Translations under genes and position numbers: made by a program | The notes under the pieces: generated by a model | The model's input: only the letters and a program-made list of their open reading frames with translations | The model's database searches: none | What the model was told of the DNA's origin: nothing | Shown here: piece after piece, positions 5,928-55,525 of the stretch | Numbering within the stretch: the first letter of the stretch is position 1 | Layout: each line of letters begins with the position of its first letter | Assembly (NCBI GenBank): GCA_023659935.1 | Contig: JAGXOK010000001.1 | Location: 9,569 to 73,568, forward strand | Direction: 5' to 3' | DNA length: 64,000 bases | DNA from: Candidatus Aenigmarchaeota archaeon LH_S6 | GTDB taxonomy: Archaea > Aenigmatarchaeota > Aenigmatarchaeia > QMZS01

Positions 5928-6647
5928 ATGGGAATTGCAACTAAATTAAAAGAATATGTTGAGGATGGTGAAGTCTTAACCTATGAAATTATTAAAGATT
6001 TCAATCTCACCTCTGAAACCTCCCTGAAAGTTATTCTTTCAAATATGATTAAAATGAAAATCATTTTATCTCCTAAAAAAGGAGTTTATGTGTCTAAAAA
6101 TTTTAATCCTTTTAAAATTGCCCCCATCTTAGAGCCAGGATATATTACATTAACCACAGCATTTTATCATTACAATTTCATCTCCGAATATCCTTTCAAT
6201 ATATATGTTGGGGCTAAAAAATGGGCGGAGTATAGTTTGGGCAATTATAAATTTATTTATTTCCCCACCACAAATTTCAAATTTATTGACTTGGAAAGTA
6301 AAATTGCATTACCGGAAAAAGCTATATATGATTCTTTAAAATATTATAAAATTGTCCCTTTCAAGAAAACATTAGAAGCAATCCATCATGCAAGAAAGGT
6401 AAATTGGGATAATTTCTTGGCACTACTTTCTGAAGAAAAATCTTCTTTTTTACAAAGAACAGGTTATTTATTTTCAATTCTACCAAAAAAAAATAAAAAG
6501 ATTAAAGAAGTAATAATTTTCTGCAAACAAAACATGAATAAAGAATCTAAAATTTATCTTTTTGGAAGAAGTAAAGGAACTTTTATAGAAGAATGGAATA
6601 TTATAGATAATATTAGGGAAGAGGAATTATTATCATGGTGGAAATAG
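5928..6647 (+). CDS. AbiEi-like antitoxin / transcriptional regulator (type IV TA)
   Basis: Same size class as AbiEi and has a KGVY motif. It overlaps the downstream AbiEii-like gene by 13 nt. Confidence 0.4.
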   Translation: MGIATKLKEYVEDGEVLTYEIIKDFNLTSETSLKVILSNMIKMKIILSPKKGVYVSKNFNPFKIAPILEPGYITLTTAFYHYNFISEYPFNIYVGAKKWAEYSLGNYKFIYFPTTNFKFIDLESKIALPEKAIYDSLKYYKIVPFKKTLEAIHHARKVNWDNFLALLSEEKSSFLQRTGYLFSILPKKNKKIKEVIIFCKQNMNKESKIYLFGRSKGTFIEEWNIIDNIREEELLSWWK

Positions 6648-7318
6648 TTTTTAATAAAGAAGAAATAAAAAAATATTCAGCAGAGGCTGGTTTAGGATTC
6701 AATTTTATAGTAAAGGAAGCTTTTTTATTTTCAATCCTGGATGTTTTGAGAGATTATGATATTGTGTTGAAAGGAGGCACCGCAATAAACAAAATATTCC
6801 TTAAAGATAAACAAAGATTTTCAGAGGATTTGGATTTTGATACGAATTTAGGTCTAAAAGAAATAACGCAGATATTGCAAAAAGAAAAATTGAAAATAAA
6901 GAAGAGATATTATACAAAACATGCTCATGGTTTTGAAATTGCTTACACCTATGAAAACATAAAAGATGTTATTAGACTGGATTTTTCAATGCCAATAAAA
7001 GGTAATTGTTCTATTTCTACTTTAAAATCTGAGTTTTTACCTTTATCTATAAGATTTAGAGCTTATACTTTGAAGGAACTAATAAAACAGAAAGAAACAA
7101 CTTTCTTAAATAGAAAGGAGTGGAAAGATTTATATGATCTCTTCTGGATTTCAAAATTTTACCCAGACCAATTTAAAATTTCGGACAAAAAAAAATTTAT
7201 AGAAATTTTAAGTAAAATCAAAGTTCCAAAAATTGCAAATGCCTATATACCATTAAAAAATAGAATTGAGGGGAGGATTATAATTGAAGAATTTTTAAAG
7301 ACACTAACCAAAAAATAA
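6635..7318 (+). CDS. AbiEii-family nucleotidyltransferase toxin (DUF1814)
   Basis: Motif LKGGTAINK...RFSEDLDFD is the GGT plus RxSxDxD signature of AbiEii NTases. Confidence 0.6.
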   Translation: MVEIVFNKEEIKKYSAEAGLGFNFIVKEAFLFSILDVLRDYDIVLKGGTAINKIFLKDKQRFSEDLDFDTNLGLKEITQILQKEKLKIKKRYYTKHAHGFEIAYTYENIKDVIRLDFSMPIKGNCSISTLKSEFLPLSIRFRAYTLKELIKQKETTFLNRKEWKDLYDLFWISKFYPDQFKISDKKKFIEILSKIKVPKIANAYIPLKNRIEGRIIIEEFLKTLTKK

Positions 7319-9690: not shown

Positions 9691-9888
9691 CTACAATAAC
9701 ATTGTTCTAAAGGAATGAAAAATTGAGTTATATGCAGATATTTCTGTAATTTCATATTCTTCTATTTTGTAAGTTTTATTTGCTGTATTCAAAAATCTTT
9801 CTGCAATTTTAATGGATTTCTGGATTCTTTCATTTGCTTTATAATCTTTTCTTATCAAACCTTTTTCCAAGCACTCTTTAAAGTTCAT
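9691..9888 (-). pseudogene. HEPN-domain protein, apparently truncated or frameshifted
   Basis: The 65-aa ORF ends ...SAYNSIFHSFRTMLL, which matches the HEPN helix AYYAMFHAARALLL. The expected C-terminal Rx4-6H part is missing or out of frame. It overlaps the upstream MNT gene by 4 nt. Confidence 0.4.
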
Positions 9889-10430
9889 AATTCCACTCCT
9901 TTGATAAGAATATAATTTTTTAAAACACTATTTGAAAAAGAGTCATTTTTTTTCTTCATAGTTTCCCATTTATAATAAGGAATAACTGTGAGTTGAATTT
10001 CCTTATTGCTCTTATTTTTTATACTTATCAATTTTTTATTGTTTATATCTTTGTTTTCACCAATTACCAGAATATCAATATCACTTTTTTCATCAAAATT
10101 TCCAGAAGCATAACTTCCATATATTGCAAGAGAATCCTCGTTTTTAACAATTTCTTCTATTCCTAGTTCCTTTAAATATGTTAAATAGTAAGCCTTTTTG
10201 TATTCTCTTGAAATATAATTTTCATTGTCTAGTCTGAATAGTTTTAAATTGGCTTGTTTCTTTTCTTTTAAAATATTTTCTTTTCTGAGTAAATAACAGT
10301 AAGTTTTTGCACTGCCAACACTTATCCCTAATTCTCTTGACAATTTCCTTATATGAATCTCTCTTGATGGATTCTTTAAAAAGAATTCCAGGACCATGAA
10401 TCCAACAAATTTCCTGAATTCTGATAGCAT
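9885..10430 (-). CDS. minimal nucleotidyltransferase (MNT) with N-terminal wHTH, partner of the HEPN fragment
   Basis: GSYASG...SDIDILVI Pol-beta NTase motif. N-terminal HTH-like region. Confidence 0.6.
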   Translation of the reverse strand: MLSEFRKFVGFMVLEFFLKNPSREIHIRKLSRELGISVGSAKTYCYLLRKENILKEKKQANLKLFRLDNENYISREYKKAYYLTYLKELGIEEIVKNEDSLAIYGSYASGNFDEKSDIDILVIGENKDINNKKLISIKNKSNKEIQLTVIPYYKWETMKKKNDSFSNSVLKNYILIKGVEL

Positions 10431-12753: not shown

Positions 12754-13082
12754 CGCCGAGAGCAGGATTCGATTGCATAAGCCTTTCTGGTTAATTCCTC
12801 TATTGCAACCTTACAAACAGGAAATTGGTTAATAGGGGGTAGGTAAAGGTAAAAGCGGAAAAATGAAATTGGTTTTGGCTTGAATCTTTCGCTTAAATTT
12901 TTTCCCAAAAAAGGCTTTACCTGCGTTTCCTTACGGAAAACTAGTCTCAAGCCAGCCGCGTTAGGTCGCAAATAGCACCATCTGGGGTGCAGTTCTTGTT
13001 TTTTCAGAGAAAAAACAGATGTTCTATCTTTGATAGAACAACCTTTTTTAAAGGATTGCTTAGACCACTCCGCCATCTCGGC
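12754..13082 (-). tRNA. tRNA-Ser (anticodon TGA, class II) with two long non-canonical introns: D-loop (12961-13059) and T-loop (12773-12918)
   Basis: Minus strand: gccgaga-tg-gcg-gagtggtctaa[99-nt intron]cgc-g-gctgg-cttgaga-ctagt-tttccgtaaggaaa-c-gcagg-t[146-nt intron]tcgaat-cctgc-tctcggc-g. All stems pair and the spliced product is 84 nt. The six-frame ORF 12741-13076 coincides with this locus and is rejected. Confidence 0.55.
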
Positions 13083-13349
13083 ATAATAAGTTAAATAATT
13101 AATTTTTAAGAGTAATTTAATATCCCTGATATAATTGATAATAATAAGAAATAATATTGCAAAATTCTGTAAGGGATAGGGTCCAAAAAAAGAGCTTTCT
13201 TGATAAAAATAAAATAGATGAACTTTCTTTGGAGGATAAAGATTTAATCAAAGATGAGATTATCTATTAAAAAAACTCAAGCAAAAACAGAGAGATAATT
13301 TTGTTATCTGTGATTCAGATCCTGTAAATTCTTAAAAGTTATTATTAGT

Positions 13350-19533: not shown

Positions 19534-19808
19534 GTCTTAGAAGTGATAAACTCTTGCCTCAAAATTCATAATCTTTCCTTTTTTAATTTTAACTTAAAAT
19601 AGCCAAGAAGTCTATTTCCAAAATCTTAGCTAATAATACAGGATTTTGGTGGTAGCTCAATTGGCATACTAAAGGTTTTTTGCTATATTATACTAAGGGA
19701 ATGAACAAATACCGCTGGACGAGTGGGAATTCACGCCTGTGGAGATTTGACCTCTACTGCTCAGTCAGCAAGTCGAGTCGTGGAAGCAGGAACTATATAC
19801 GATGATTC

Positions 19809-20126
19809 TCAATAGCATAATTTCATCGTTGGAAGCCACTTCCAAAAATCAATTTGGTGGTGGAGGATGTCACTCCCTTCTCTCCTCAGTTTTCTAATTT
19901 TCTCGGTTTTTCCTAATTTATATCCTCTAATTTCTCTATTAGTCCCAACAACTTTATAGCATTTAATCCCTCTTAAGTTCTCATTTTTTGACAAAATTCT
20001 GCCAACTTCTCTTGGATTTAAACCAAGTTTAGAGCCAATTTCTTTATAGGTGGTAATTTTTCCTTTGGGAATTTTCTGGAGTAATCTAAAAACTTGCTCA
20101 CTTTTTGGAGTTGGTTTGTATCCCAT
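19809..20126 (-). CDS. MGMT/Ogt DNA-binding-domain protein (methylated-DNA-protein-cysteine methyltransferase C-terminal domain only)
   Basis: TYKEIGSKLGLNPREVGRILSKNE...IKCYKVVG resembles the MGMT HTH and PCHRV active-site region. Confidence 0.5.
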   Translation of the reverse strand: MGYKPTPKSEQVFRLLQKIPKGKITTYKEIGSKLGLNPREVGRILSKNENLRGIKCYKVVGTNREIRGYKLGKTEKIRKLRREGSDILHHQIDFWKWLPTMKLCY

Positions 20127-23539: not shown

Positions 23540-23828
23540 GTTTCAATCCTTATTTCATTCGTTTTCTTTGAAAACGATGCACCGTTTTTCTTTGAAAAAC
23601 GAGTGTCTTGGACCTATCTCTAAAACGCAACCCTTTTCAAGGTAATTGTTGAAAAAGGTCTGCACCCTAAAAACTAAAATAACAGAATTATCACCCTGTT
23701 TTGGCTTGAGCCTTTTTAATTTATAATACCCATAAAAGGCTCATTTAATCCTTATTTCATTCGTTTTCTTCGAAAACGATGCACCGTTTTTCTTTGAAAA
23801 ACGAGTGTCATGGACCTATTTCTAAAAC
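23540..23828 (-). CRISPR. satellite repeat-X-repeat unit: two 85-87-nt expanded CRISPR repeats (each with a 52-nt twin-palindrome insertion) flanking a 117-nt X element
   Basis: 23540-23626 and 23744-23828 are the normal 37-nt repeat, with cattcgttttctttgaaaacgatgcaccgtttttctttgaaaaacgagtgtc inserted between cttattt and ctggacc. 23627-23743 is 95 percent identical to 25894-26009. Confidence 0.55.
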
Positions 23829-25265: not shown

Positions 25266-26117
25266 GTATTTTAATCCTTATTTTACTGGATCTATTTCTA
25301 AAACTGCCATATCTCCTACTACATCATCAGAACTCTCCGTTGCGTTTCAATCCTTATTTTCATGGACCTATCTCTAAAACAGAAAATTTAGAAAATCTGG
25401 CTGAAGAGTATGGTATGTTTCAATCCTTATTTTCATGGACCTATCTCTAAAACTTTCTTTTAGGTCTATGTTTCCCCCCATTCCAGCATGTTTCAATCCT
25501 TATTTTACTGGACCTATCTCTAAAACATTAGATACAAGGGAGAGAAAGCTTGAAGAATCTAAAGTTTCAATCCTTATTTTACTGGACCTATCTCTAAAAC
25601 AGGAATGCGCTCCAGAATCTATCATTACTTTTCCTTGTTTCAATCCTTATTTTACTGGACCTATTTCTAAAACACAAAGGACTTAGAGGGAACATAAAAT
25701 ACAAAACCCTGTTTCAATCCTTATTTTCGTGGATCTATTTCTAAAACTAACTCTGGAGGACGGGTTCAACGCAACTTCTGATGGTTTCAATCCTTATTTT
25801 ACTGGATCTATCTCTAAAACGAGACAGGGAAAAACCAACAACCAACACCATATCACGTTTCAATCCTTATTTTACTGGATCTATCTCTAAAACGCAACCC
25901 TTTTCAAGGTAATTGTTGAAAAAGGTCTGCACCTCAAAAACTAAAATAACAGAGTTATCACCCTGTTTTGGCTTTAGCCTTTTTAATTTACAATACCCAT
26001 AAAAGGCTCATTCAATCCTTATTTTACTGGACCTATCTCTAAAACTGTATTTTCAAGAAGGAAAAACCTTATCTCTTCTCGTTTCAATCCTTATTTTACT
26101 GGACCTATCTCTAAAAC
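25266..26117 (-). CRISPR. CRISPR array of 11 repeats; 37-nt repeat GTTTCAATCCTTATTTTACTGGACCTATCTCTAAAAC on the + strand; 35-39-nt spacers
   Basis: Repeats at 25266 (degenerate), 25344, 25417, 25490, 25564, 25637, 25711, 25784, 25857, 26010 (5'-truncated) and 26081. The reverse complement starts GTTTTAGAG and ends ATTGAAAC (a typical 8-nt 5' handle), so it is probably transcribed from the minus strand. That places the leader at 26118-26677 beside cas6 and makes the degenerate 25266 repeat the terminal one. Confidence 0.85.
25894..26009. repeat. 116-nt X element inside the CRISPR array between repeats 9 and 10 (second copy at 23627-23743)
   Basis: Too long to be a spacer. It holds two hairpins (ccttttcaa..ttgaaaagg and agccttttta..taaaaggct). 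The adjacent repeat is 5'-truncated. Confidence 0.7.
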
Positions 26118-26550
26118 AGCACCGAAATCCTTTGATTTTGGCTGTTCTTGGCGATTTTAATTCACCAATTTCGTCATATATATTATTTATCATTTTCTTT
26201 ATAAAGGAGTGCTATTGTACACATATTCGCCTGTAACAACAATCAACACACCTCATATTATAACTTGTTTTTTTTTAGGATAGAAACCCTTTTGGATTAT
26301 ATTTAGGATTTCATTTATCATCCCGATTGCCCCAATCATAAATTATAATCACTTATTTTTATAACTTCTCTAAAATCTCAAGTAATTCCTTATCTTCTTT
26401 CATCATTTTTTCTATCTGTTTATCTGCAATTTCCTTGGAAACTTTTAGTTCTTTTATACCTTTATCTGTTAATACATGTCTTATATAATACTTCCCTTCA
26501 ACTTTTTTCAATTCTCTCATAAATATAATTTGTAAGTTTATTTAAATCAA

Positions 26551-26664
26551 TTTGGGTGTTGGCCTTTTGATAGATTTAACCAATAAAGGCTGACTCTTTT
26601 TTTATTGACCAATTTTGTAGTTTGGGTGTTGGCCTTTTGATAGATTTAACCAATAAAGGCTGAC
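26551..26664. repeat. tandem duplicated 44-bp hairpin unit (period 70 bp) in the CRISPR leader / cas6 3' region, carrying a TTAACCAA loop motif
   Basis: TTTGGGTGTTGGCCTTTTGATAGATTTAACCAATAAAGGCTGAC occurs at 26551-26594 and 26621-26664. Confidence 0.8.
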
Positions 26665-26677
26665 AAGGGTTGCATAT

Positions 26678-27328
26678 TTAAACTGATTTAACTGTTCCAA
26701 AACCCTGTGAAACTCCTTTACCCAATCCAATAAATTCAGGTAATTTAAAATTGATTTTAAAATCACCAGTAAAACCAATCATAGGTACTTCTTTATATAC
26801 AACCGAGACAGGTTTAACTTTTGTCTTGACTTTTAATTCAGACAAAACAACATATTCAAATGCTTTTGCAACAGAAAGAATATTTCCAATCAGGACCTTG
26901 TGCAATAGCAATGTCTGTTCTTTTTTATTTAAACTATTATACTCTTTATAATTCTTCTCATTCAAAGCTATCCATGGTATGACAAACCTATATTTTCTCT
27001 CTTTTTCACTAAAACAAAAGTTCTGATATTTTTCTATTGTCTTTTTTTCTACAATTTTGTAACTGCTTGTTCCCAATTTAAGGTTGTCAAACTCATTCGA
27101 AATATTTTTTAAAGCAGTTGCACCCTCATTAATACCTAAAATAACTGGAGTGCCTTCTATTACTTTGTATTGTACTAGTGGATAAGTATATAGATAATTT
27201 TTCTCCAGATGATGATGTAAGATTGGTTCATCTCTAAATTTATTCCCAACAAAACCGCGGAGAAATGTTCCGGATTCTTTAACAGGTTTATTTGTTTTCA
27301 GAATTAAAGTATAAATTAAAAGTTCCAT
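26678..27328 (-). CDS. cas6: CRISPR-associated endoribonuclease Cas6
   Basis: Adjacent to the array on the inferred leader side. C-terminal glycine-rich loop GLGKGVSQGFGTV. RRM-like size of 216 aa. Confidence 0.65.
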   Translation of the reverse strand: MELLIYTLILKTNKPVKESGTFLRGFVGNKFRDEPILHHHLEKNYLYTYPLVQYKVIEGTPVILGINEGATALKNISNEFDNLKLGTSSYKIVEKKTIEKYQNFCFSEKERKYRFVIPWIALNEKNYKEYNSLNKKEQTLLLHKVLIGNILSVAKAFEYVVLSELKVKTKVKPVSVVYKEVPMIGFTGDFKINFKLPEFIGLGKGVSQGFGTVKSV

Positions 27329-28695: not shown

Positions 28696-28968
28696 TTTTT
28701 TTTTGGGTTTATTTTTTCATAAAATCTACTGTAATTAGAAAATATCTGTTCCTGCAAAAATCTAATCAGGGAACTGGAAAATTATAAATATAGAGTCTCA
28801 AAGGGTTCTATTCAGGAATTACCTGTTAAATCAGAGAACGATGCTGTTGACAGTTTACGCTATAGGCTTTTTTCTTATAATCTCTCAAATCAGCAATCTT
28901 CAGAATTATGTGATGATGTTGTTAGTTGAAATTGGTAAGAATAACTTTTATAAATAATTTTATATATT

Positions 28969-29790
28969 ATGACCGTTTGTATATCTGCAATTTGTTGTGA
29001 TAACAAGCATGAAGATCCAAAAATTATAGTATCTTCGGATAGAATGATTACAACGGAATTGGGAGCCCCTGTCGAATATGAAGGAACAAGTACAAAAATT
29101 AGTGAACTGACCTCTAGCTGCGTTGTATTGTCGGCTGGAGTCACAACTTGGATAGAAGACCTTGTATACCGAACTAAACAAGCTATTAAAAATGAAAATA
29201 CTCTGGTTATTCGGGGAATTGCAAAAAAATGTGCTAATGCCTATATCGAGCTTATTCAAGATAATATTAAAAGACTTATTCTTAGTACTTATAATATGAG
29301 TTTTGAAGAGTTTAAAGATCAACAAAAATATAATTCTAGTTTTTTAGCAGAAGTAAACAAAAGTATTTCATTAACCAGACAAACTATAGGAGATAATTTA
29401 GCTTCATTAATTGCAGGCATTGATAAAAATGGTGCTGATATTTTTGGGATTAACAATGGCAATTTTTATCCATTTACCTCATTAGGTTACCAAGCATTAG
29501 GAAGTGGTCAAGCGTCAGCAGAATCAGTTTTTGTTCATAGGGGATATGATACTAAATGGGATCTTAAAAAAGCTATAATAACATTAATAGAAGCGAAAAA
29601 ACAAGCAGAAGAAGCTCAAGGAGTGGGAAAAAATACAGATATTGTTATTATATCAAGGGATGGAATAAAATACCTAGAAGAAGGAACAATTGAAGAACTT
29701 GAAAAAATCCACAGGGAATTAATGAATAAAATATCAGATACTAGAGATGAAGTAATTAAAGATAAATTAAATAAGTTAGATATATTATGA
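28969..29790 (+). CDS. proteasome beta-type (Ntn-hydrolase) homolog, propeptide-less with C-terminal coiled-coil extension
   Basis: Starts MTVCISAI (Thr2, as in HslV/Anbu). The following positions line up with those of the T. acidophilum proteasome beta subunit: SSDRMIT (the D17 region), GTSTKISEL (K33), VLSAGVTTWIEDLV, ALGSGQASAESVFV (the GSGS loop) and GKNTDIVIISRDG. Confidence 0.55.
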   Translation: MTVCISAICCDNKHEDPKIIVSSDRMITTELGAPVEYEGTSTKISELTSSCVVLSAGVTTWIEDLVYRTKQAIKNENTLVIRGIAKKCANAYIELIQDNIKRLILSTYNMSFEEFKDQQKYNSSFLAEVNKSISLTRQTIGDNLASLIAGIDKNGADIFGINNGNFYPFTSLGYQALGSGQASAESVFVHRGYDTKWDLKKAIITLIEAKKQAEEAQGVGKNTDIVIISRDGIKYLEEGTIEELEKIHRELMNKISDTRDEVIKDKLNKLDIL

Positions 29791-29796
29791 GAATGA

Positions 29797-29937
29797 AAAG
29801 AAGAGAAAAACTTGGTTTAAGGCACATATCCGAATTTGAGTTAATGGGTATTAGGTTTGAAGAACTCGGAGAAGAACTTGTAAAGAGGAGAGAACTGGAG
29901 AGAAAACTGGAAGAATTAAAAAAGTAATTTTTTAATT
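29797..29937 (+). CDS. small 46-aa charged protein translationally coupled (ATGA) to the proteasome-like gene
   Basis: MRMKRREKLGLRHISEFELMGIRFEELGEELVKRRELERKLEELKK. Below the ORF-track size cut-off. Confidence 0.2.
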
Positions 29938-30085
29938 AAAACTCTTTTTAGGCACCAAAGTCTTCTAACTTAGTTTTCATATTTTTGGAATAAATTCTTT
30001 CTTCCCTCTATTTAAGTTTTTTTCCATATGCCTCACTGTCTAAATTTGTTTTGCCTTTCTTAAATAGACCAGTGAGGCTTTAGTC

Positions 30086-30221
30086 AGCCACGGGAGGGAC
30101 TTGAACCCCCAACCTGCGGTTTACAAAACCGCTGCTCCACCAGTTACCCCAACCTTTTATTTTCCTATCGACGCTTTTTGATGGACTTAACCAATAAAAG
30201 GGTTGATTGAGCCACCGTGGC
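30086..30221 (-). tRNA. tRNA-Thr (anticodon TGT) with a ~63-nt D-loop intron (about 30144-30206)
   Basis: Minus strand: gccacgg-tg-gctc-aa[intron]ctggtg-gagc-a-gcggt-tttgtaa-accgc-aggtt-ggggg-ttcaagt-ccctc-ccgtggc-t. The acceptor stem pairs perfectly and the discriminator is U, as is common for Thr. The intron contains the TTAACCAATAAAAGG motif on the opposite strand. Confidence 0.6.
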
Positions 30222-37188: not shown

Positions 37189-37600
37189 AATATGTTATGA
37201 AGAAAGGTTTAACAATGGGTGTACTATTTTGGGTACTTATATTTTTTATAGTACTTATTGTTTTTGTCTCTCTTGCCCTGTGGAGTAAAGGTTTTGGTTT
37301 AAATATTTTAAGTGCTTTATTAGGCTCAGTACCTTAGTATGGGGAATATAGGTTTGATAATATTATATGTTGTTTTGGGTTTAGTGTTTATTCTCCTTGT
37401 ATTTTCTGTTGGTTCAGCCCTCTCTTTAATATGAAAAGAGTTTTTTTTTGCTTGAGCCTTTTTAGTAAACTTAACCAACAAAAGGCTTATATGAAAGGAA
37501 TAACTATCGATATGATTGCGAGTATTATAATTTTATTTATGGTTTTTATAATCCTTACTGTAATTTTTATAGCAATGGGTAATGCAATACCATCCCCAAC

Positions 37601-39343: not shown

Positions 39344-39380
39344 ATCTGAATTTAATATTTTATTGATAATTAAATAATAG

Positions 39381-39447
39381 AGGATGTGAAATTAACCAAA
39401 TTAATAGAGGGAAGAAAGTAAATTGATAAGGAGTATTAATAAACATT
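39381..39447 (+). repeat. ~67-nt conserved element, copy A (copy B at 47648-47710)
   Basis: A is attaaccaaattaatagagggaag..agtaaattgataagg..ttaataaaca. B is attaaccaaattaataggtggaag..agtaatttgataagg..ttaataaaca. Confidence 0.75.
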
Positions 39448-41506: not shown

Positions 41507-42460
41507 ATGTTTAAAAGAAAGAAAGAATTTGGTTTGAAATGTCCCGAATGTGGGTCAACAGAAATATTAGTGGATAATGAAAAAGGAGAGAAGACATGCT
41601 CAAAATGCGGATTAATACTGAATGAAAGCATGATTGATACACAACAGGACTGGAGGGCTTTTGATACTGAGGAATTGGAGAAGACTGCAAGAACAGGAGC
41701 TCCATTGACAAAGATGAGACATGATAAAGGAATTGGGACAGAAATCGGAAAAAGCAAGGCAGAATTGTTTAAAGTTTCTGCTGGAAAAAGAGGACAATAC
41801 TTCAGAATAAAGAACTGGCAGAAGAGACTTGTAAGTGGTAAGGACAGAAATTACGGTTATGCTTTGTCTGAATTGGAAAGAATTGCCTCTGCTTTGAGCC
41901 TGCCAAAGAATTTGCAGGAAGAAATAGGGTCAATGTATGAAAAAGCTTTGGAAGAAGGTTTAGTAAAAGGCAGGAGTATTGAAGCTATTATAGGTTCCCT
42001 CGTTTATGCTTTATCAAGAGAATATGGTAGTCCAAGGCTGATGTCAGAAATCTGTGATGTTTCAGGAGTTGACAAAAGAGATTTAGGAAGAACTTATAGG
42101 TATGTTGCAAGAAAACTAAATCTAAGAGTTATTCCTGCAAAAGCAGTTAATTATGTCCCAAGATGTGCAACAATCCTTAAATTGGGTGATAAAACTCAAA
42201 TTAAAGCAAAGCAATACCTGAAAAATATAAAAAGTGAAGAAGACATTTCAGGAAAGGGTCCTATAGGGCTTGCTGCAGCAACTTTATATATTGCAGCAAT
42301 AATGAATGGAGAAATTGTATCACAAAGAAAAATTGCAGAAGCAATTGGAGTAACAGAAGTTACAATTAGAAATAGGTGTAAGGACATTGCAAAAAGTTTG
42401 GGTATAGAGGAAAAAGTTGAGCAGAAGATTAAAGAATTAGAAAATTTGCAGAAAGAATAA
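41507..42460 (+). CDS. tfb: transcription initiation factor TFB (TFIIB homolog)
   Basis: N-terminal Zn ribbon CPECGS...CSKCG, B-reader and two cyclin repeats. 317 aa. Confidence 0.85.
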   Translation: MFKRKKEFGLKCPECGSTEILVDNEKGEKTCSKCGLILNESMIDTQQDWRAFDTEELEKTARTGAPLTKMRHDKGIGTEIGKSKAELFKVSAGKRGQYFRIKNWQKRLVSGKDRNYGYALSELERIASALSLPKNLQEEIGSMYEKALEEGLVKGRSIEAIIGSLVYALSREYGSPRLMSEICDVSGVDKRDLGRTYRYVARKLNLRVIPAKAVNYVPRCATILKLGDKTQIKAKQYLKNIKSEEDISGKGPIGLAAATLYIAAIMNGEIVSQRKIAEAIGVTEVTIRNRCKDIAKSLGIEEKVEQKIKELENLQKE

Positions 42461-42570
42461 TGTCAGCCTTTAGAAAAGGCCGACACTCCAAACAAGGAAA
42501 TTTTGTTTTTTTCTAGTTTATACTAAGTTATTAATTTAAAATTTCAAAAATAAAAAGAAGATTAAGGAGG

Positions 42571-47545: not shown

Positions 47546-47647
47546 TTATCAGGTTATTGTAACTCTAACAACAAATGTGAATAAATTCTTTTCTCATAGT
47601 GCTACTCTGATATTTAATAAGGATTTTATAATTTAATAAAAATACTG

Positions 47648-47710
47648 GGTGTAGGGAATTAACCAAATTAATAGGTGGAAGTTAGTAATTTGATAAGGTT
47701 GTTAATAAAC
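47648..47710 (+). repeat. ~63-nt conserved element, copy B
   Basis: See the 39381-39447 entry. Confidence 0.75.
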
Positions 47711-53127: not shown

Positions 53128-54198
53128 ATGAACAAACGAGTTTTATCTTTCCTAGAAAAGAAGTGCCAACAACTTGTCAAAAAATATCCCCTAATTAAGG
53201 CAATTTTTGTTTATGGTTCATCTGTTAGAAAGAAGAAGATAACCAATGATGTTGACTGCGCTATAATTGTTGATGATACCTCTGAGCAGTTTAAGGAATC
53301 AATTCTTGATTATCTGGAGGGGGATATGGGGATTATTTCAAAAGAAGGAGACGAGAAATATAAGGTGGATATGCACTTTCAGTCCCCAAAACCTTTATCT
53401 ATGTGGTGGGATTCACTTAGAAGTGGAGAACCATGGGTAATAACATCTTTAAAAGACGCTTATGTTATCTATGATCCTTCTGATTATATAACTCCATTAA
53501 AATCTTTAATTAATCAGGGAAGAATGACTGGAACTAAAGAGAAGGCTCAGGCTTTGATTGAGAGGGCTCCTTATAGATACAAAGAAGCACAGAGAATGAT
53601 GCTTGATGAAGTAACAGAAGAATTATTATCTGCAATGGTTGAGACAGCACAAGCAGTTTTAATGTTTTTTGGGATTGCACCCCCAGCAGCAAGAGATATT
53701 CCAAAAGAATTAAGAAAAAATTTTGTTAGCCGGGGTCTGTTAAAGGAAAAAGTCGCAGACTGCATTGAGGATTTCTATGAAACAACAAACAAAATAAACC
53801 ACAGAGAAATTACAAAATTAAGCGGAAAAGAGATAAAAAAACTTTTGAACAGAGCAATTCTTTTTATTGACAAGATGGACGATTTGTTTTCCATACTTGA
53901 AGTTGCAAAAAAGAAAGACATTATTGAGAAATCCTATGAGAAAGCAATTAAAGTTTGCAAAAAGGCTCTGAAACTGAAATCGCCCAAATTAGATACAGAA
54001 ACCATGAAAAAATTCAAAAAAGAATTTGTTAATACAGGGATGATTTCAACAGATTATTTAAATCTGCTAAAAAAACTCGAAAAAATGAAAAATCTTGCAG
54101 AAAAAGGAAAACTTGGGAATATCCCAGAAAGAGACATTTATTCCTCAATTATTTACACAAAAAGTTTAGAGGAGATTTTAATGAAAAGGAAGAAATAG
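53128..54198 (+). CDS. Pol-beta-superfamily nucleotidyltransferase with extended helical C-terminal domain
   Basis: FVYGSSVRKK...NDVDCAIIVDD. A paralog is at 55556-56341. Confidence 0.45.
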   Translation: MNKRVLSFLEKKCQQLVKKYPLIKAIFVYGSSVRKKKITNDVDCAIIVDDTSEQFKESILDYLEGDMGIISKEGDEKYKVDMHFQSPKPLSMWWDSLRSGEPWVITSLKDAYVIYDPSDYITPLKSLINQGRMTGTKEKAQALIERAPYRYKEAQRMMLDEVTEELLSAMVETAQAVLMFFGIAPPAARDIPKELRKNFVSRGLLKEKVADCIEDFYETTNKINHREITKLSGKEIKKLLNRAILFIDKMDDLFSILEVAKKKDIIEKSYEKAIKVCKKALKLKSPKLDTETMKKFKKEFVNTGMISTDYLNLLKKLEKMKNLAEKGKLGNIPERDIYSSIIYTKSLEEILMKRKK

Positions 54199-54240
54199 GT
54201 ATTTAAATAGTTTAAATATATATTATGGCAAAAGAACTTG
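54163..54240 (+). repeat. ~78-bp segmental duplication copy 1 (copy 2 at 55130-55207)
   Basis: ttagaggagattttaatgaaaaggaagaaata.gtatttaaatagtttaaatatatattatggca.aagaactt, with a few mismatches. Confidence 0.8.
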
Positions 54241-54578
54241 GAAAAAAACAGGTCTATACTACTGGGGTTGAGCAGGTTCCAAAAACTACGGACTACAGAA
54301 ACGAAAGACTGGTATACAAAGTATATGAAAGTGCAAATAATCTGCTAAGTCGTAGAGGAGGTCCTAAGGGAGAAATAGAAGTTTTTGGGTATAAGAAGTC
54401 TGAAGAATATACCACAGAAGATGGTAAAACTGCTTTCAAAGTTGAACCCATCACTGATGAAAAAGAAAAGGTACGGTTAAGTAGGCGTTTAATACATACC
54501 GTTGCAGATAAGGTAGTAGCATATGGATCAGGAGATAGATGGTACCAGGGTAAGAAAACCAAAGATAACTATACCTAA
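54225..54578 (+). CDS. hypothetical protein
   Basis: ORF. Its start lies inside the duplicated segment. Confidence 0.3.
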   Translation: MAKELGKKQVYTTGVEQVPKTTDYRNERLVYKVYESANNLLSRRGGPKGEIEVFGYKKSEEYTTEDGKTAFKVEPITDEKEKVRLSRRLIHTVADKVVAYGSGDRWYQGKKTKDNYT

Positions 54579-54886: not shown

Positions 54887-55134
54887 TTATCAATTAGAAT
54901 ATACAAAACTATTCATAAAGAAGCTAAAAAAGTTTGAATCTAGGATTAGAGACAGAATTTTACAGGCTATTGAAAACATCCTGGATAATCCTTACAATGG
55001 TTCTCAACTAGTTTTTTCCAAAGAAAAACTGTGGAAGTGGAGAATAGGGAATTATTTATAAAATAGATGAGAAAGAACCTAGAGTTGTATTAATCGTTGT
55101 GAACCACAGAAAACGGGTTTATAAAAGATTTTAG
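54879..55134 (+). pseudogene. RelE/ParE-family toxin with a frameshift near 55056
   Basis: One frame reads YQLEYTKLFIKKLKKFESRIRDRILQAIENILDNPYNGSQL...LWKWRIGNYL*. A frame shifted by +1 continues KIDEKEPRVVLIVVNHRKRVYKRF*. Joined, they make a typical ~85-aa RelE. Confidence 0.5.
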
Positions 55135-55207
55135 AGGAGATTTTAATGAAAAGGAAGAAATAAGTATTTAAATAGTTTAAATATATATTATGGCAGAAGA
55201 ACTTAGA
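55130..55207 (+). repeat. ~78-bp segmental duplication copy 2
   Basis: See the 54163-54240 entry. It includes an identical MKRKK*-promoter-MA.EL segment. Confidence 0.8.
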
Positions 55208-55525
55208 AAAAAAAGAGAAAACGTAGCAGAATATCTAACTAAGATGGTAGATTACACAAAGCAAGGTGAGGTAGATAAAGCAGATAGCAACTATCAAAAT
55301 GCAATGTCTCATTTAGACTATAATTCAAAAAAGAAGTTACACAAACTTGAGGATAGTGTAGGCTATAAAAGCGATACGGCTCCTGTAGCTAAAGGAGCTA
55401 GTGAAGTTATAAAATCGTATGCAAACTATATCAACAGAGAAATAAAAGAATTGAAAAAAGAGCAGAAAGAAGCAGAGGCAGCAGAAAAAAAATTCGCGAA
55501 AGTTAGAAAAAAATTAGAAAAATAA
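55190..55525 (+). CDS. hypothetical coiled-coil protein
   Basis: ORF. Its first 8 codons are duplicated from the 54225 gene. Confidence 0.3.
   Translation: MAEELRKKRENVAEYLTKMVDYTKQGEVDKADSNYQNAMSHLDYNSKKKLHKLEDSVGYKSDTAPVAKGASEVIKSYANYINREIKELKKEQKEAEAAEKKFAKVRKKLEK

What the first reader, a model, noticed from the sequence alone, without database searches (positions are those of the whole stretch)
12773..12918. Recurring TTAACCAA(N)4-5AAAGGC motif in tRNA introns and intergenic hairpins
The core TTAACCAA, usually followed by AAAGGC(T) and often inside a GCCTTTT...AAAAGGC stem, occurs at 12787-12794 and 12825-12832 (both in the tRNA-Ser T-loop intron), 26576-26583 and 26646-26653 (tandem hairpins in the CRISPR leader), 30187-30194 (tRNA-Thr intron, opposite strand), 37471-37478, 39392-39399 and 47659-47666. 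Eight hits of an 8-mer in 64 kb are far more than chance allows, even at this AT content. This looks like a small repeat or mobile hairpin family, or a shared protein-binding or promoter-like site that also colonised tRNA introns.
Basis: seen in the sequence. Interest (0 to 1): 0.65.

Follow-up and report, generated by a model that had tools for sequence, protein, structure and literature searches.

The report
Hairpin repeat family colonising archaeal tRNA introns
The TTAACCAA motif is the loop of a roughly 35-base hairpin repeat found only in Aenigmarchaeota genomes, which is scattered through non-coding DNA, changes in copy number between close strains, and makes up much of the unusual introns that split this organism's tRNA genes.

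Summary
The bare 8-mer is only weakly enriched: 14 hits on both strands against 7.0±2.7 expected.

The extended motif is real. A 10-bp stem (S)GCCTTT(T)/(A)AAAGGC(S) encloses a 17-nt loop that ends in TTAACCAAY (4 hits against 0.00 expected). A covariance model finds 10 units in the window.

The window comes from an Aenigmarchaeota archaeon. Across 185,579 species genomes, full-stem copies occur essentially only in five Aenigmarchaeota assemblies.

A second Ser intron and a D-loop intron of tRNA-Thr also contain units. All fit relaxed bulge-helix-bulge motifs, and removing them in silico restores tRNAs that ARAGORN detects. The unit stem supplies the inner helix of four of the five D-loop introns and of the window's Ser T-loop intron.

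Units also lie outside tRNAs: next to cas6b, in CRISPR spacer positions and between small ORFs. At 37456 relatives carry 0, 1, 2 or 3 copies, and the filled site is flanked by an 8-bp direct repeat of the empty site.

Best reading: a non-autonomous, mobile and recombining palindromic repeat that colonises non-coding DNA and expands tRNA introns. The enzyme that moves it is unknown.

The parts
12773..12918 (-). 146-nt intron at position 54/55 (T-loop) of tRNA-Ser(UGA). It is a composite of one reverse and about two forward degenerate hairpin units. Its ends, AAGCCUUU and AAAGGCUU, pair as the inner helix h' of the bulge-helix-bulge (BHB) motif.
   Evidence: Removing it in silico, together with intron 1, gives an ARAGORN tRNA-Ser(tga); the unspliced sequence gives none. 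BHB parse: H GCAG/AUGC (3 of 4 pairs), bulges GU^A and AA^U, h' 10 of 12 pairs.
12962..13060 (-). 99-nt intron at 20/21 (D-arm) of the same tRNA-Ser. It carries a D-type unit stem (GCAAUCC...CUGCACCCC) with other small hairpins nested in its loop.
   Evidence: H GGUC/GACC 4 of 4 pairs, bulges UA^A and UA^A. The orthologous intron in CSMAG_2865 (L081) is 65 nt and holds an intact TTAACCAAT unit antisense to the tRNA.
12754..13082 (-). tRNA-Ser(UGA) gene. Exons at 13082-13061, 12961-12919 and 12772-12754.
13249..13307 (-). Degenerate unit (TTTTTGCTTGAG-TTTTTTTAATAG...) about 170 nt upstream of tRNA-Ser.
   Evidence: Covariance-model hit, 21.2 bits, E=0.008.
23621..23691 (-). D-type unit (GGTGCAGACCTTTTTCAACAATTACCTTGAAAAGGGTTGC) inside the 117-nt block between two interrupted CRISPR repeats.
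   Evidence: Covariance-model hit, 35.4 bits, E=1e-6, not in the training set.
23679..23749 (+). B-type unit with a variant loop (TGAGCCTTTT TAATTTATAATACCCAT AAAAGGCTCA), next to an interrupted CRISPR repeat.
   Evidence: (family D8).
25888..25958 (-). D-type unit in spacer position of the main CRISPR array.
   Evidence: Covariance-model hit, 32.5 bits, E=8e-6; repeat D6 is 95% identical to 23609-23757.
25946..26016 (+). B-type unit with a variant loop, next to the degenerate repeat at 26014.
26531..26599 (+). A-type unit 1 (TTTGGGTGTTGGCCTTTTGATAGATTTAACCAATAAAGGCTGAC) with two G·U pairs on the plus strand.
   Evidence: (D20, 100% identical to the second copy).
26600..26670 (+). A-type unit 2, a tandem copy 70 bp from the first, lying 8 nt from the cas6b stop codon.
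   Evidence: LH_S7 (L008) has a single copy here. L005 and L006 have none and instead carry an intact 71-aa cas4-like ORF.
30144..30206 (-). 63-nt intron at 15/16 (D-loop) of tRNA-Thr(UGU). It is essentially one C-type unit (plus-strand hairpin 30169-30205, loop TGATGGACTTAACCAAT) lying antisense to the tRNA.
   Evidence: Removing it gives an ARAGORN tRNA-Thr(tgt). BHB parse: H GCUC/GGGU 4 of 4 pairs, bulges AA^U and AA^C, h' CAACC/GGUUG. Conserved in L002, L003 and L031.
30086..30221 (-). tRNA-Thr(UGU) gene. Exons at 30221-30207 and 30143-30086.
37425..37495 (+). B-type unit (T9 GCTTGAGCCTTTT TAGTAAACTTAACCAAC AAAAGGCTTA) inserted at the stop/start junction of two small membrane ORFs. It is flanked by ATATGAAA direct repeats at 37432-37439 and 37489-37496.
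   Evidence: Best covariance-model hit, 72.1 bits. Copy number at this locus is 0 in L106, 1 in the window and L002, 2 in L101, L103 and L104, and 3 in L042.
42456..42512 (-). A-type unit whose 17-nt loop is reduced to 3 nt (GTGTCGGCCTTT TCT AAAGGCTGAC). It lies between the convergent TFB gene and a minus-strand gene.
   Evidence: Covariance-model hit, 30.6 bits, E=2.5e-5, not in the training set.

Best explanation
The TTAACCAA motif is the most common loop variant of a family of short interspersed palindromic repeats specific to Aenigmarchaeota.

**The unit.** A full unit is about 55-70 nt. It has an upstream (W)ACCAAYTT box, a run of 4-9 T, two or three G/C bases, and then a ~37-nt hairpin. 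The hairpin has a 10-bp stem (core GCCTTTT/AAAAGGC; subfamilies A-D differ in the outer stem) and a 17-nt loop that often ends in TTAACCAAY.

**Shown.**
- The units are dispersed in non-coding DNA.
- They form tandem arrays that expand and contract between strains.
- They recombine into chimeras.
- They occupy the splicing-endonuclease (bulge-helix-bulge, BHB) introns of many tRNA genes. There the unit's stem strand, abutting the 5' splice-site bulge, forms the inner helix h' in four of five D-loop introns and in the window's Ser T-loop intron.

**Inferred.**
- The unit is a non-autonomous selfish element. It spreads at the DNA level by insertion with a short (~8 bp) target duplication, followed by unequal crossing-over and gene conversion.
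- It survives only where it does no harm: in intergenic DNA, CRISPR flanks, and introns that the host endonuclease and ligase remove from the RNA.
- The near-universal antisense orientation within tRNA genes reflects selection against the unit's T-run, which on the sense strand would act as an archaeal termination signal.

The enzyme that moves the unit has not been identified.
For: **Real and specific to one lineage.**
- The extended motif has 4 hits in the window against 0.00 expected.
- A scan of 185,579 species genomes gave 100 matches. Of these, 27 fall in 21 loci of five Aenigmarchaeota assemblies.
- 25 of those 27 have 9-10 of 10 stem pairs, against 2 of 73 matches elsewhere.
- The matches in viral contigs lack the stem.

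**The hairpin is maintained.**
- 92.7% of stem cells pair, against 75.8% in shuffles. Six of 10 pairs change on both sides. The covariation score is 0.448 against 0.132, and 0 of 500 shuffles reach it.
- Stems vary in a compensatory way: GAGCC/GGCTC, TAAGCC/GGCTTA and AAACC/GGTTT.

**Mobility and instability.**
- At 37456, a 57%-identity ortholog (L106) has the empty site ccaATATGAAAGGAtta with overlapping stop and start codons. The window has ATATGAAA-AGAG-T9-hairpin-ATATGAAA-GGA.
- Close relatives carry 1, 2 or 3 tandem units at this locus.
- The loop difference between the window and L002 is explained by each keeping a different unit of the two-unit array still present in L103.
- Downstream of cas6b there are 0, 1 or 2 units in different strains.
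- Tandem arrays are present in L040, L042, L052 and L096, and L096 also holds a B/D chimera.

**Introns.**
- All eight introns examined parse as a 4-bp helix H, 3-nt bulges and an inner helix h'.
- Removing them in silico restores tRNA-Thr and tRNA-Ser that ARAGORN detects.
- Units lie in introns at 15/16, 20/21, 37/38 and the T-loop of Thr, Arg, Phe, Ala, Trp, Gly and Ser genes.
- The 54/55 intron of tRNA-Ser is 34 nt without a unit in CSMAG_2865 and 146 nt with units in the window, so units expanded a pre-existing intron.

**No consistent regulatory placement.** Free-standing units are intergenic but lie in mixed orientation and at mixed distances relative to genes.
Against: - Only one locus gives a clean comparison of empty and filled sites. 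Its 8-bp duplication could partly reflect selection, because both overlapping ORFs need the ATGA junction.
- A more distant ortholog (L108) has a different unit variant at the same junction, so the history of this site is not simple.
- No transposase or integrase was found in the window or in about 230 kb of related loci. Pfam scans covered 30 window ORFs, and a crude HUH/Y1 regex covered 341 ORFs.
- The hairpin arms are internal inverted repeats, not the termini of the insert delimited by the duplication.
- The T-run explanation for the antisense bias is weakened by the window's tRNA-Ser, whose introns carry U5-U6 runs on the sense strand.
- G·U pairs favour folding of the TTAACCAA strand (15 forward-only pairs against 5, and about 8 against 2 independent events). 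That strand is antisense to the tRNAs. This hints at a single-stranded DNA or antisense-RNA stage that this model does not explain.
- Conservation of TTAACCAAY among the retrieved copies is partly by construction, because the search pattern required it.
Confidence: 0.6

Rival explanations
1. The hairpin is mainly a functional RNA module of bulge-helix-bulge (BHB) introns. Its GCCUUUU/AAAAGGC stem provides the inner helix h' that positions the splicing endonuclease. Similar introns spread among tRNA genes by intron transposition or gene conversion, as in Thermoproteales. Free-standing copies are then decayed introns, halves of split tRNA genes, or endonuclease processing sites in other transcripts.
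For: - The intron starts within 0-1 nt of the unit's stem, which forms h' in four of five D-loop introns and in the window's Ser T-loop intron.
- D-loop 15/16 introns of 60-63 nt in Thr, Arg and Phe each consist of one unit plus a tail that mimics the D-stem.
- L008 has a unit next to a lone tRNA 3' fragment beside a CRISPR array.
Against: - Free-standing units at 37456, 26562 and 42466 have no H helix or bulge partners in either orientation, judged by inspecting the flanking sequences.
- The window's tRNA-Ser intron 2 contains units in both orientations.
- G·U pairs favour the strand antisense to the tRNA.
- The short 54/55 intron in CSMAG_2865 splices without any unit.
- The insertion flanked by a direct repeat at an ORF junction has nothing to do with tRNA.
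Confidence: 0.15
2. The unit is a REP- or PATE-like element moved as single-stranded DNA by an IS200/IS605-type Y1 transposase (TnpA or RAYT) encoded elsewhere in the genome. The enzyme would recognise the imperfect hairpin on one strand.
For: - The unit resembles REPs: a ~35-nt imperfect palindrome with conserved flanks, found singly and in clusters in intergenic DNA.
- G·T wobble pairs concentrate on one strand.
- There is a strong orientation bias in tRNA genes: about 10 genes antisense, none purely sense.
- An IS605-type tnpB is present in relative L040, and a 95.7%-identical remnant of its right end lies in the window at 19690-19873.
Against: - IS200/IS605 and REP elements insert without a target duplication, whereas the 37456 insertion is flanked by an 8-bp direct repeat.
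- No HUH/Y1 ORF was found in 341 ORFs, though the test was crude.
- The right end of the tnpB element (GGAAGCCACTTCC...GGATGTCAC) does not resemble the unit.
- Units in the window lie 6 on the plus strand and 4 on the minus strand, so there is no replication-strand bias.
Confidence: 0.12
3. The unit is a regulatory signal on DNA or RNA: a terminator (T-run plus hairpin), a promoter or TFB/TBP site, or the operator of a DNA-binding protein. It recurs because many genes use it.
For: - The forward strand carries a run of 6-9 T, which is an archaeal termination signal.
- At 37456 the T-rich 5' arm lies about 28 nt upstream of an ATG, the right distance for a leaderless promoter.
- The loop-less copy at 42459-42487 is the only unit scored as terminator-like.
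- The 3' part of the loop, TTAACCAAY, recurs across stem subfamilies.
Against: - Orientation and distance to flanking genes are inconsistent across 21 free-standing units.
- The T-run precedes the stem instead of following it.
- Copy number at one locus ranges from 0 to 3 among close relatives whose flanking genes are unchanged.
- Loops differ completely in some subfamilies (ATAATACCCAT, GAAGTAATTGAC).
- A position inside tRNA introns antisense to the gene is hard to explain as regulation.
- The recognisable promoter element upstream of genes in this window is TTTAAATA (repeat D7), which the unit lacks.
Confidence: 0.08
4. The recurrence is a chance product of AT-rich sequence composition.
For: The bare 8-mer is only about twofold enriched, and 1 of 100 shuffles reaches the observed count.
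Against: - The extended motif has 4 hits against 0.00 expected.
- Covariance-model hits reach E=1e-16.
- The same hairpin recurs in five other Aenigmarchaeota assemblies with compensatory stem changes.
Confidence: 0.01

Closest known systems
Transposed bulge-helix-bulge (BHB) tRNA introns of Thermoproteales (Fujishima et al. 2010, recalled from memory and not re-read here), and non-canonical or multiple archaeal tRNA introns in general (reviewed in PMC4090602 and PMC4033280)
   Same: - Introns lie at non-canonical positions (D-loop, D-arm, T-loop), often several per tRNA.
- Introns of different tRNAs share sequence.
- The junctions carry relaxed BHB (H-bulge-h') motifs.
   Different: - Here the shared sequence is a discrete hairpin repeat that also occurs outside tRNA genes.
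- It forms tandem arrays and is polymorphic between strains.
- It lies mostly antisense to the tRNA.
- The introns are long (60-146 nt and more).
Bacterial interspersed palindromic repeats (REP/BIME, Correia, RUP and ERIC elements) and archaeal MITEs or PATEs
   Same: - Short (35-70 nt) imperfect palindromes with many copies per genome.
- They are confined to non-coding DNA and occur singly or in clusters.
- No coding capacity.
- Copy number varies between strains.
   Different: - Found in a DPANN archaeon.
- Embedded in tRNA introns and contributing to their splice-site structure.
- No REP-type GTAG box.
- No associated transposase identified.
- An 8-bp flanking duplication at one site, unlike REPs and PATEs.
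Introner elements of eukaryotic algae and fungi (transposon-derived spliceosomal introns; own knowledge)
   Same: A repeated mobile sequence makes up a large share of the introns of a lineage and carries part of the structure the splicing machinery needs.
   Different: - The splicing system differs: a protein endonuclease recognising BHB, not the spliceosome.
- The one clear comparison shows expansion of a pre-existing intron (Ser 54/55).
- Creation of a new intron by a unit has not been shown.
C/D box sRNAs encoded in archaeal tRNA-Trp introns
   Same: A small structured element lies inside a tRNA intron, and some copies contain UGAUAGA or UGAUGGA and CUGA-like strings.
   Different: - The box-like strings are not conserved across units (alignment A4).
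- They lie on the strand antisense to the tRNA.
- Their geometry does not fit a kink-turn.
- Rfam gives no match.

Membership tests
Archaeal splicing-endonuclease (bulge-helix-bulge, BHB) tRNA intron (applies to 12773-12918, 12962-13060 and 30144-30206) | Interrupts a tRNA gene, and precise removal restores a canonical cloverleaf. | tested here: met
   ARAGORN finds tRNA-Thr(tgt) and tRNA-Ser(tga) only after the introns are removed in silico.
Archaeal splicing-endonuclease (bulge-helix-bulge, BHB) tRNA intron (applies to 12773-12918, 12962-13060 and 30144-30206) | A BHB or relaxed H-bulge-h' motif at the exon-intron junctions: a 4-bp helix flanked by two 3-nt bulges that carry the splice sites. 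| tested here: met
   All 8 introns parsed, 3 from the window and 5 from relatives, have H with 3-4 of 4 pairs, 3-nt bulges and an inner helix h' of 4-10 bp. None has a fully paired outer helix (stretches of at most 2 pairs), so these are the relaxed form. The junctions were chosen by me using tRNA logic, not by an independent predictor.
Archaeal splicing-endonuclease (bulge-helix-bulge, BHB) tRNA intron (applies to 12773-12918, 12962-13060 and 30144-30206) | Cleavage by EndA and ligation by RtcB in vivo. | not testable with these tools
   No RNA data are available, and the endonuclease gene was not looked for outside the window.
MITE (non-autonomous DNA transposon) | Many dispersed, near-identical short non-coding copies. 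| tested here: met
   10 units in 64 kb. 41 hits in 169 kb of related loci, although those loci were selected for the motif.
MITE (non-autonomous DNA transposon) | A target-site duplication flanking the insert, and an empty site in a relative. | tested here: inconclusive
   One locus (37456) has an 8-bp ATATGAAA direct repeat and an empty site in L106. No clear duplication was seen at other singleton copies. Selection to keep the overlapping stop and start codons could bias this one case.
MITE (non-autonomous DNA transposon) | Terminal inverted repeats at the ends of the insert. | tested here: not met
   The 10-bp inverted arms form the internal hairpin. The left end of the insert at 37456 is AGAG followed by T9, which does not mirror the right end.
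MITE (non-autonomous DNA transposon) | A related autonomous element that encodes the transposase. | tested here: not met
   None was found among 30 window ORFs scanned with Pfam, nor in related loci by a crude motif scan. Sampling is limited to about 300 kb.
REP/RAYT or IS200/IS605-derived palindromic element | An imperfect palindrome of about 35 nt that is strand-specific, with an associated Y1 (HUH) transposase and no target duplication. | tested here: inconclusive
   The palindrome and the strand asymmetry of G·T pairs are present. No HUH/Y1 ORF was found. The direct repeat at 37456 argues against this family. An IS605-type tnpB exists in the lineage, but its right end is unrelated to the unit.
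Intrinsic (hairpin plus T-run) terminator | A G+C-rich stem with a short loop, followed immediately by a T-run. | tested here: not met
   The loops are 17 nt and the T-run lies 5' of the stem. Only the loop-less copy at 42459-42487 scores as terminator-like.
C/D box sRNA | Conserved C (RUGAUGA) and D (CUGA) boxes able to form a kink-turn, together with guide regions. | tested here: not met
   The boxes are absent from most units (alignment A4). No Rfam family matched at E<=1.

The most novel reading that the evidence does not exclude
The hairpin unit could be an archaeal counterpart of eukaryotic 'introners'. On this reading it is a mobile palindromic element whose own stem supplies the inner helix of a bulge-helix-bulge motif. 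Insertion into a transcribed RNA gene would then create or enlarge an intron that the host splicing endonuclease and ligase remove. This would explain why nearly every tRNA gene sampled in these Aenigmarchaeota is split at several non-canonical positions. The same universal stem might also let separately transcribed tRNA pieces pair for trans-splicing. The evidence neither shows nor excludes creation of new introns. It does show that the unit abuts the 5' splice-site bulge in the tRNA-embedded copies examined and forms the inner helix in most of them, and that units expand an existing intron.
Probability: 0.2. Interest if true: 0.85.

Novelty: new variant of a known kind. Interest (0 to 1): 0.62.

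Why it matters
How archaeal tRNA introns at non-canonical positions arise and multiply is still unresolved. The best precedent is sequence similarity among introns of Thermoproteales.

Here a discrete, countable repeat unit links three things:
- dispersed intergenic repeats that vary between strains;
- CRISPR-flanking DNA;
- the structural core of introns at four or more positions in seven or more tRNA species of a DPANN phylum.

This makes the question testable. Strain-resolved or complete Aenigmarchaeota genomes, together with circular-RNA sequencing, could catch intron gain or expansion as it happens.

There is also a practical point. Standard tRNA finders miss almost all tRNA genes in these genomes: ARAGORN found none in 64 kb and Rfam found one partial hit. 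tRNA-based completeness estimates for such assemblies are therefore misleading.

Tried and rejected
- **C/D box or kink-turn reading of UGAUAGA...CUGA.** Rejected. The boxes are not conserved, the geometry is wrong, and Rfam gives no hit.
- **Archaeal promoter reading of the T-rich 5' arm.** It fits the spacing at 37456 only. The loops lack a TATA consensus and orientations are mixed.
- **Bacterial-style promoter and terminator scan.** Uninformative.
- **Replication-origin boxes and integrase attachment sites.** Considered from the sequence and dropped. The neighbouring genes fit neither (cas6b, ribosomal proteins).
- **Search for a transposase.** Pfam scans of 30 window ORFs and a regex for HUH/Y1 motifs in 341 ORFs found nothing.
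- **Viral contig scan.** Five hits, none with the stem.
- **Metagenome scan.** It recovered only the Guaymas tRNA-Ala locus already held.
- **Target duplication as the source of both halves of the splice-site motif.** It fits only the Ser 20/21 intron (GGUCUAA against GACCUAA) and not the 15/16 introns, so I do not claim it.
- **D-loop mimicry.** The reverse complement of the loop, AUUGGUUAA, resembles a tRNA D-loop. I noted this but could not test it.
- **Literature searches.** No description of this repeat family was found.
Full report
**Check of the observation**

TTAACCAA occurs 14 times on both strands. Shuffles that preserve dinucleotide content give 7.0±2.7, and 1 of 100 reaches 14. The 8-mer statistic that motivated the finding is therefore weak.

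- Four are genuine members of one hairpin: 26576, 26646, 30187 and 37471.
- One is a degenerate member reading TTAACCAG (12787, minus strand).
- One is the upstream ACCAAYTT box of a degenerate unit (12825, minus strand).
- Two (39392 and 47659) belong to an unrelated ~80-nt repeat, which is conserved in relatives but has no hairpin.

The extended pattern CTTTTN{7,8}TTAACCAAYAAARG has 4 hits against 0.00 expected. Hairpins with the same GCCTTT(T)/(A)AAAGGC stem but other loops lie at 23710, 25977 and 42466.

**Source organism**

- The window is 31% G+C and encodes archaeal ribosomal protein S15, S9, L13, PolD DP2, RFC, TFB and CDC48.
- It also carries an orphan cas6b with CRISPR arrays.
- Proteins identical to those of the window occur in assembly GCA_023658975.1 and in Logan assemblies.
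- A scan of the motif across one genome for each of 185,579 species identified the lineage as Candidatus Aenigmarchaeota.

**A lineage-specific family**

- The genome scan gave 100 matches. Of these, 27 fall in 21 loci of five Aenigmarchaeota assemblies: LH_S4, LH_S7, CSMAG_2865, B34_G15 and Meg22_1618_Bin_66.
- 25 of those 27 have 9-10 of 10 stem pairs. Only 2 of the 73 matches in all other taxa do.
- The matches in viral contigs lack the stem. The metagenome scan recovered only the Guaymas locus already held.
- In an alignment of 33 units, 92.7% of stem cells pair, against 75.8% in shuffles. Six of 10 pairs change on both sides. The covariation score is 0.448 against 0.132, and 0 of 500 shuffles reach it. 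The slid controls collapse.
- The copies were retrieved with a pattern that contains TTAACCAAY, so the apparent invariance of that loop segment is partly by construction.
- Copies found by the covariance model or by stem search have other loops: ATAATACCCAT, TTTATCCAAT, GAAGTAATTGAC, or a 3-nt loop.
- The covariance model finds 10 units in the window at E<0.01, four of them outside the training set.

**Anatomy of the unit**

I call the TTAACCAA strand 'forward'. On that strand a full unit reads (W)ACCAAYTT, 3-6 nt, a run of 4-9 T, two or three G/C bases, then the hairpin: a 10-bp stem, a 17-nt loop and the returning 10-bp stem.

Four stem subfamilies recur:
- A: GTGTTGGCCTTT...AAAGGCTGAC
- B: CTTRAGCCTTTT...AAAAGGCTYA
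- C: GTCGACGCTTTT...AAAAGGGTCG
- D: GTGCAGACCTTT...AAAGGGTTGC

G·U pairs lie mostly on the forward strand. There are 15 forward-only pairs against 5, which I count as about 8 against 2 independent events.

**tRNA introns**

ARAGORN finds no tRNA in the window, and Rfam finds one partial hit. Reading the minus strand shows two tRNA genes.

- **tRNA-Ser(UGA).** Exons lie at 13082-13061, 12961-12919 and 12772-12754. A 99-nt intron sits at position 20/21.
- **tRNA-Thr(UGU).** Exons lie at 30221-30207 and 30143-30086, with a 63-nt intron at 15/16.

Removing these introns in silico gives tRNAs that ARAGORN detects. The unspliced sequences give none.

I parsed eight introns for the bulge-helix-bulge motif: three from the window, plus Thr, Arg, Phe, Ala and Ser introns from relatives. 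All parse the same way.
- A 4-bp helix H forms between the last exon-1 bases and the 3' tail of the intron.
- Two 3-nt bulges carry the splice sites.
- An inner helix h' follows.
- No outer helix forms. This is the relaxed form known for non-canonical introns.

In four of the five D-loop introns and in the window's Ser T-loop intron, the 5' strand of h' is the unit's own stem, starting one base after the 5' splice site.

Units also occupy canonical 37/38 introns of tRNA-Trp (at least three tandem units, L040) and tRNA-Gly (L096), and a T-loop intron in L092. In about ten different tRNA genes the unit is antisense to the tRNA. Only the window's Ser 54/55 intron mixes orientations.

The same 54/55 intron is 34 nt and has no unit in CSMAG_2865, and that tRNA-Ser has an extra 37/38 intron. 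Units therefore expand pre-existing introns, and intron content changes between lineages.

**Mobility and instability outside tRNAs**

*Locus 37456.*
- The unit lies between two small membrane-protein ORFs.
- An ortholog with 57% protein identity (L106) has the empty site ...ccaATATGAAAGGAtta..., where the stop codon overlaps the next start (ATGA).
- The window has ...ATATGAAA AGAG T9 GCTTGAGCC...AAAAGGCTT ATATGAAA GGA..., an 8-bp direct repeat flanking the insert.
- L002 has one unit with a different loop. L101, L103 and L104 have two units carrying both loop types. L042 has three.
- The apparent hypervariability of the loop between the window and L002 is therefore differential contraction of a two-unit array.
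- A 49%-identity ortholog (L108) has another unit variant at the same junction. A 42%-identity ortholog (L107) has about 185 nt of unrelated spacer there. The history of this site is not simple.

*Downstream of cas6b.*
- The window has two identical A-type units 70 bp apart, and LH_S7 has one.
- L005 and L006 have none. In the window a ~340-nt segment (the units plus a 52-aa ORF) replaces ~92 nt of a cas4-like ORF that is intact in those relatives.

*Other signs.* Tandem arrays with periods of 63-70 nt and chimeric B/D hairpins occur in L040, L042, L052 and L096.

**What the family is not**

- Free-standing units are all intergenic, but their orientation and distance to neighbouring genes are mixed. 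This argues against a directional promoter or terminator role.
- Only the loop-less copy at 42459-42487 looks like an intrinsic terminator.
- C/D boxes are not conserved, and Rfam gives no match.
- No transposase was found among 30 window ORFs or by a crude Y1/HUH scan of 341 ORFs.
- An IS605-type tnpB does exist in relative L040, and a 95.7%-identical remnant of its right end lies in the window at 19690-19873. Its end sequence is unrelated to the unit.

**Interpretation**

The best-supported reading is a non-autonomous, selfish palindromic repeat family.
- It inserts into non-coding DNA. One case carries an 8-bp flanking duplication.
- It amplifies and contracts by unequal recombination.
- It accumulates in places where it is harmless, notably introns that the host endonuclease removes.
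- There its stem has become part of the splice-site structure.

I attribute the antisense bias in tRNA genes to avoidance of the unit's T-run on the sense strand. This is an inference, and U5-U6 runs in the window's tRNA-Ser introns weaken it.

The rivals remain possible:
- an RNA module selected for splicing;
- a REP-like element moved as single-stranded DNA;
- a regulatory site.

The bolder reading, that unit insertion creates new introns, is neither shown nor excluded.

I found no published description of this family. The comparison with Thermoproteales intron transposition rests on my own knowledge of that work.

Noticed in passing
window 39367-39431 and 47634-47698: A separate ~80-nt repeat (GGRAATTAACCAAATTAATAGRKGGAAG..AGTAAWTTGATAAGG..TTAATAAACA), 75% identical between the two copies. 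The first copy is conserved in relatives L002, L101 and L104. It has no GCCTTTT hairpin. It lies downstream of genes and its function is unknown; it could be a small RNA or a shared 3' element.
   Followed up: partly
window 23541-23828 and 25894-26013: A mini CRISPR array has two repeats, each split at the same point by the same 51-nt double-hairpin insert (95% identical). The repeats flank a 117-nt 'spacer' made of two hairpin units. The same 117-120-nt block sits in spacer position in the main array, followed by a degenerate repeat. It may be an oversized spacer, an internal leader or a recombination product.
   Followed up: partly
window 19690-19873 (and L040 560-911): This stretch is 95.7% identical to the 3' end of an IS605 OrfB/TnpB-type gene and its downstream region in the LH_S4 relative. 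It looks like a solo right-end or omega-RNA-like remnant of an IS200/IS605-family element. A tRNA-like 5' fragment (GGTGGTAGCTCAATTGGCA) lies just upstream at about 19645-19672.
   Followed up: partly
window 26331-26669: A ~340-nt segment, made of two A-type units and a 52-aa ORF at 26364-26520 with no Pfam match, replaces ~92 nt of a 71-aa cas4-like ORF that is intact in L005 and L006. cas6b (26678-27328) is the only clear cas gene beside the array.
   Followed up: partly
window 28729-30081 compared with L002 1271-1577: A ~1.35-kb stretch that includes a 273-aa ORF (28969-29790, no significant Pfam match) is absent from close relative L002. It is an insertion or deletion immediately beside the 3' end of tRNA-Thr.
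   Followed up: no
L081 (CSMAG_2865), minus strand about 1100-1430: tRNA-Ser(UGA) of this relative has three introns: 20/21, 37/38 and 54/55. The window's ortholog has two. Of the tRNAs in the roughly 170 kb of related loci, ARAGORN detected only two as intact genes (Ser-CGA in L047 and Val in L085). Standard tRNA finders therefore miss most tRNA genes in this phylum.
   Followed up: partly
L008 7228-7335: In LH_S7 the far end of the CRISPR array abuts a hairpin unit, followed by a lone tRNA 3' fragment (GCCAGCAATTCGGGTTCAAATCCCGGCCAGCGCA). No 5' half lies within 8 kb. It could be a split tRNA gene or a remnant.
   Followed up: no
window 54159-54248 and 55124-55213: A 90-nt direct repeat, 94% identical, spans the end of one gene, a TTTAAATA-type promoter region and the first codons of two paralogous small genes.
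   Followed up: no
window 6635-7318 and 9885-10430: An AbiEii-type nucleotidyltransferase toxin and a second nucleotidyltransferase-domain protein, probably toxin-antitoxin modules.
   Followed up: no
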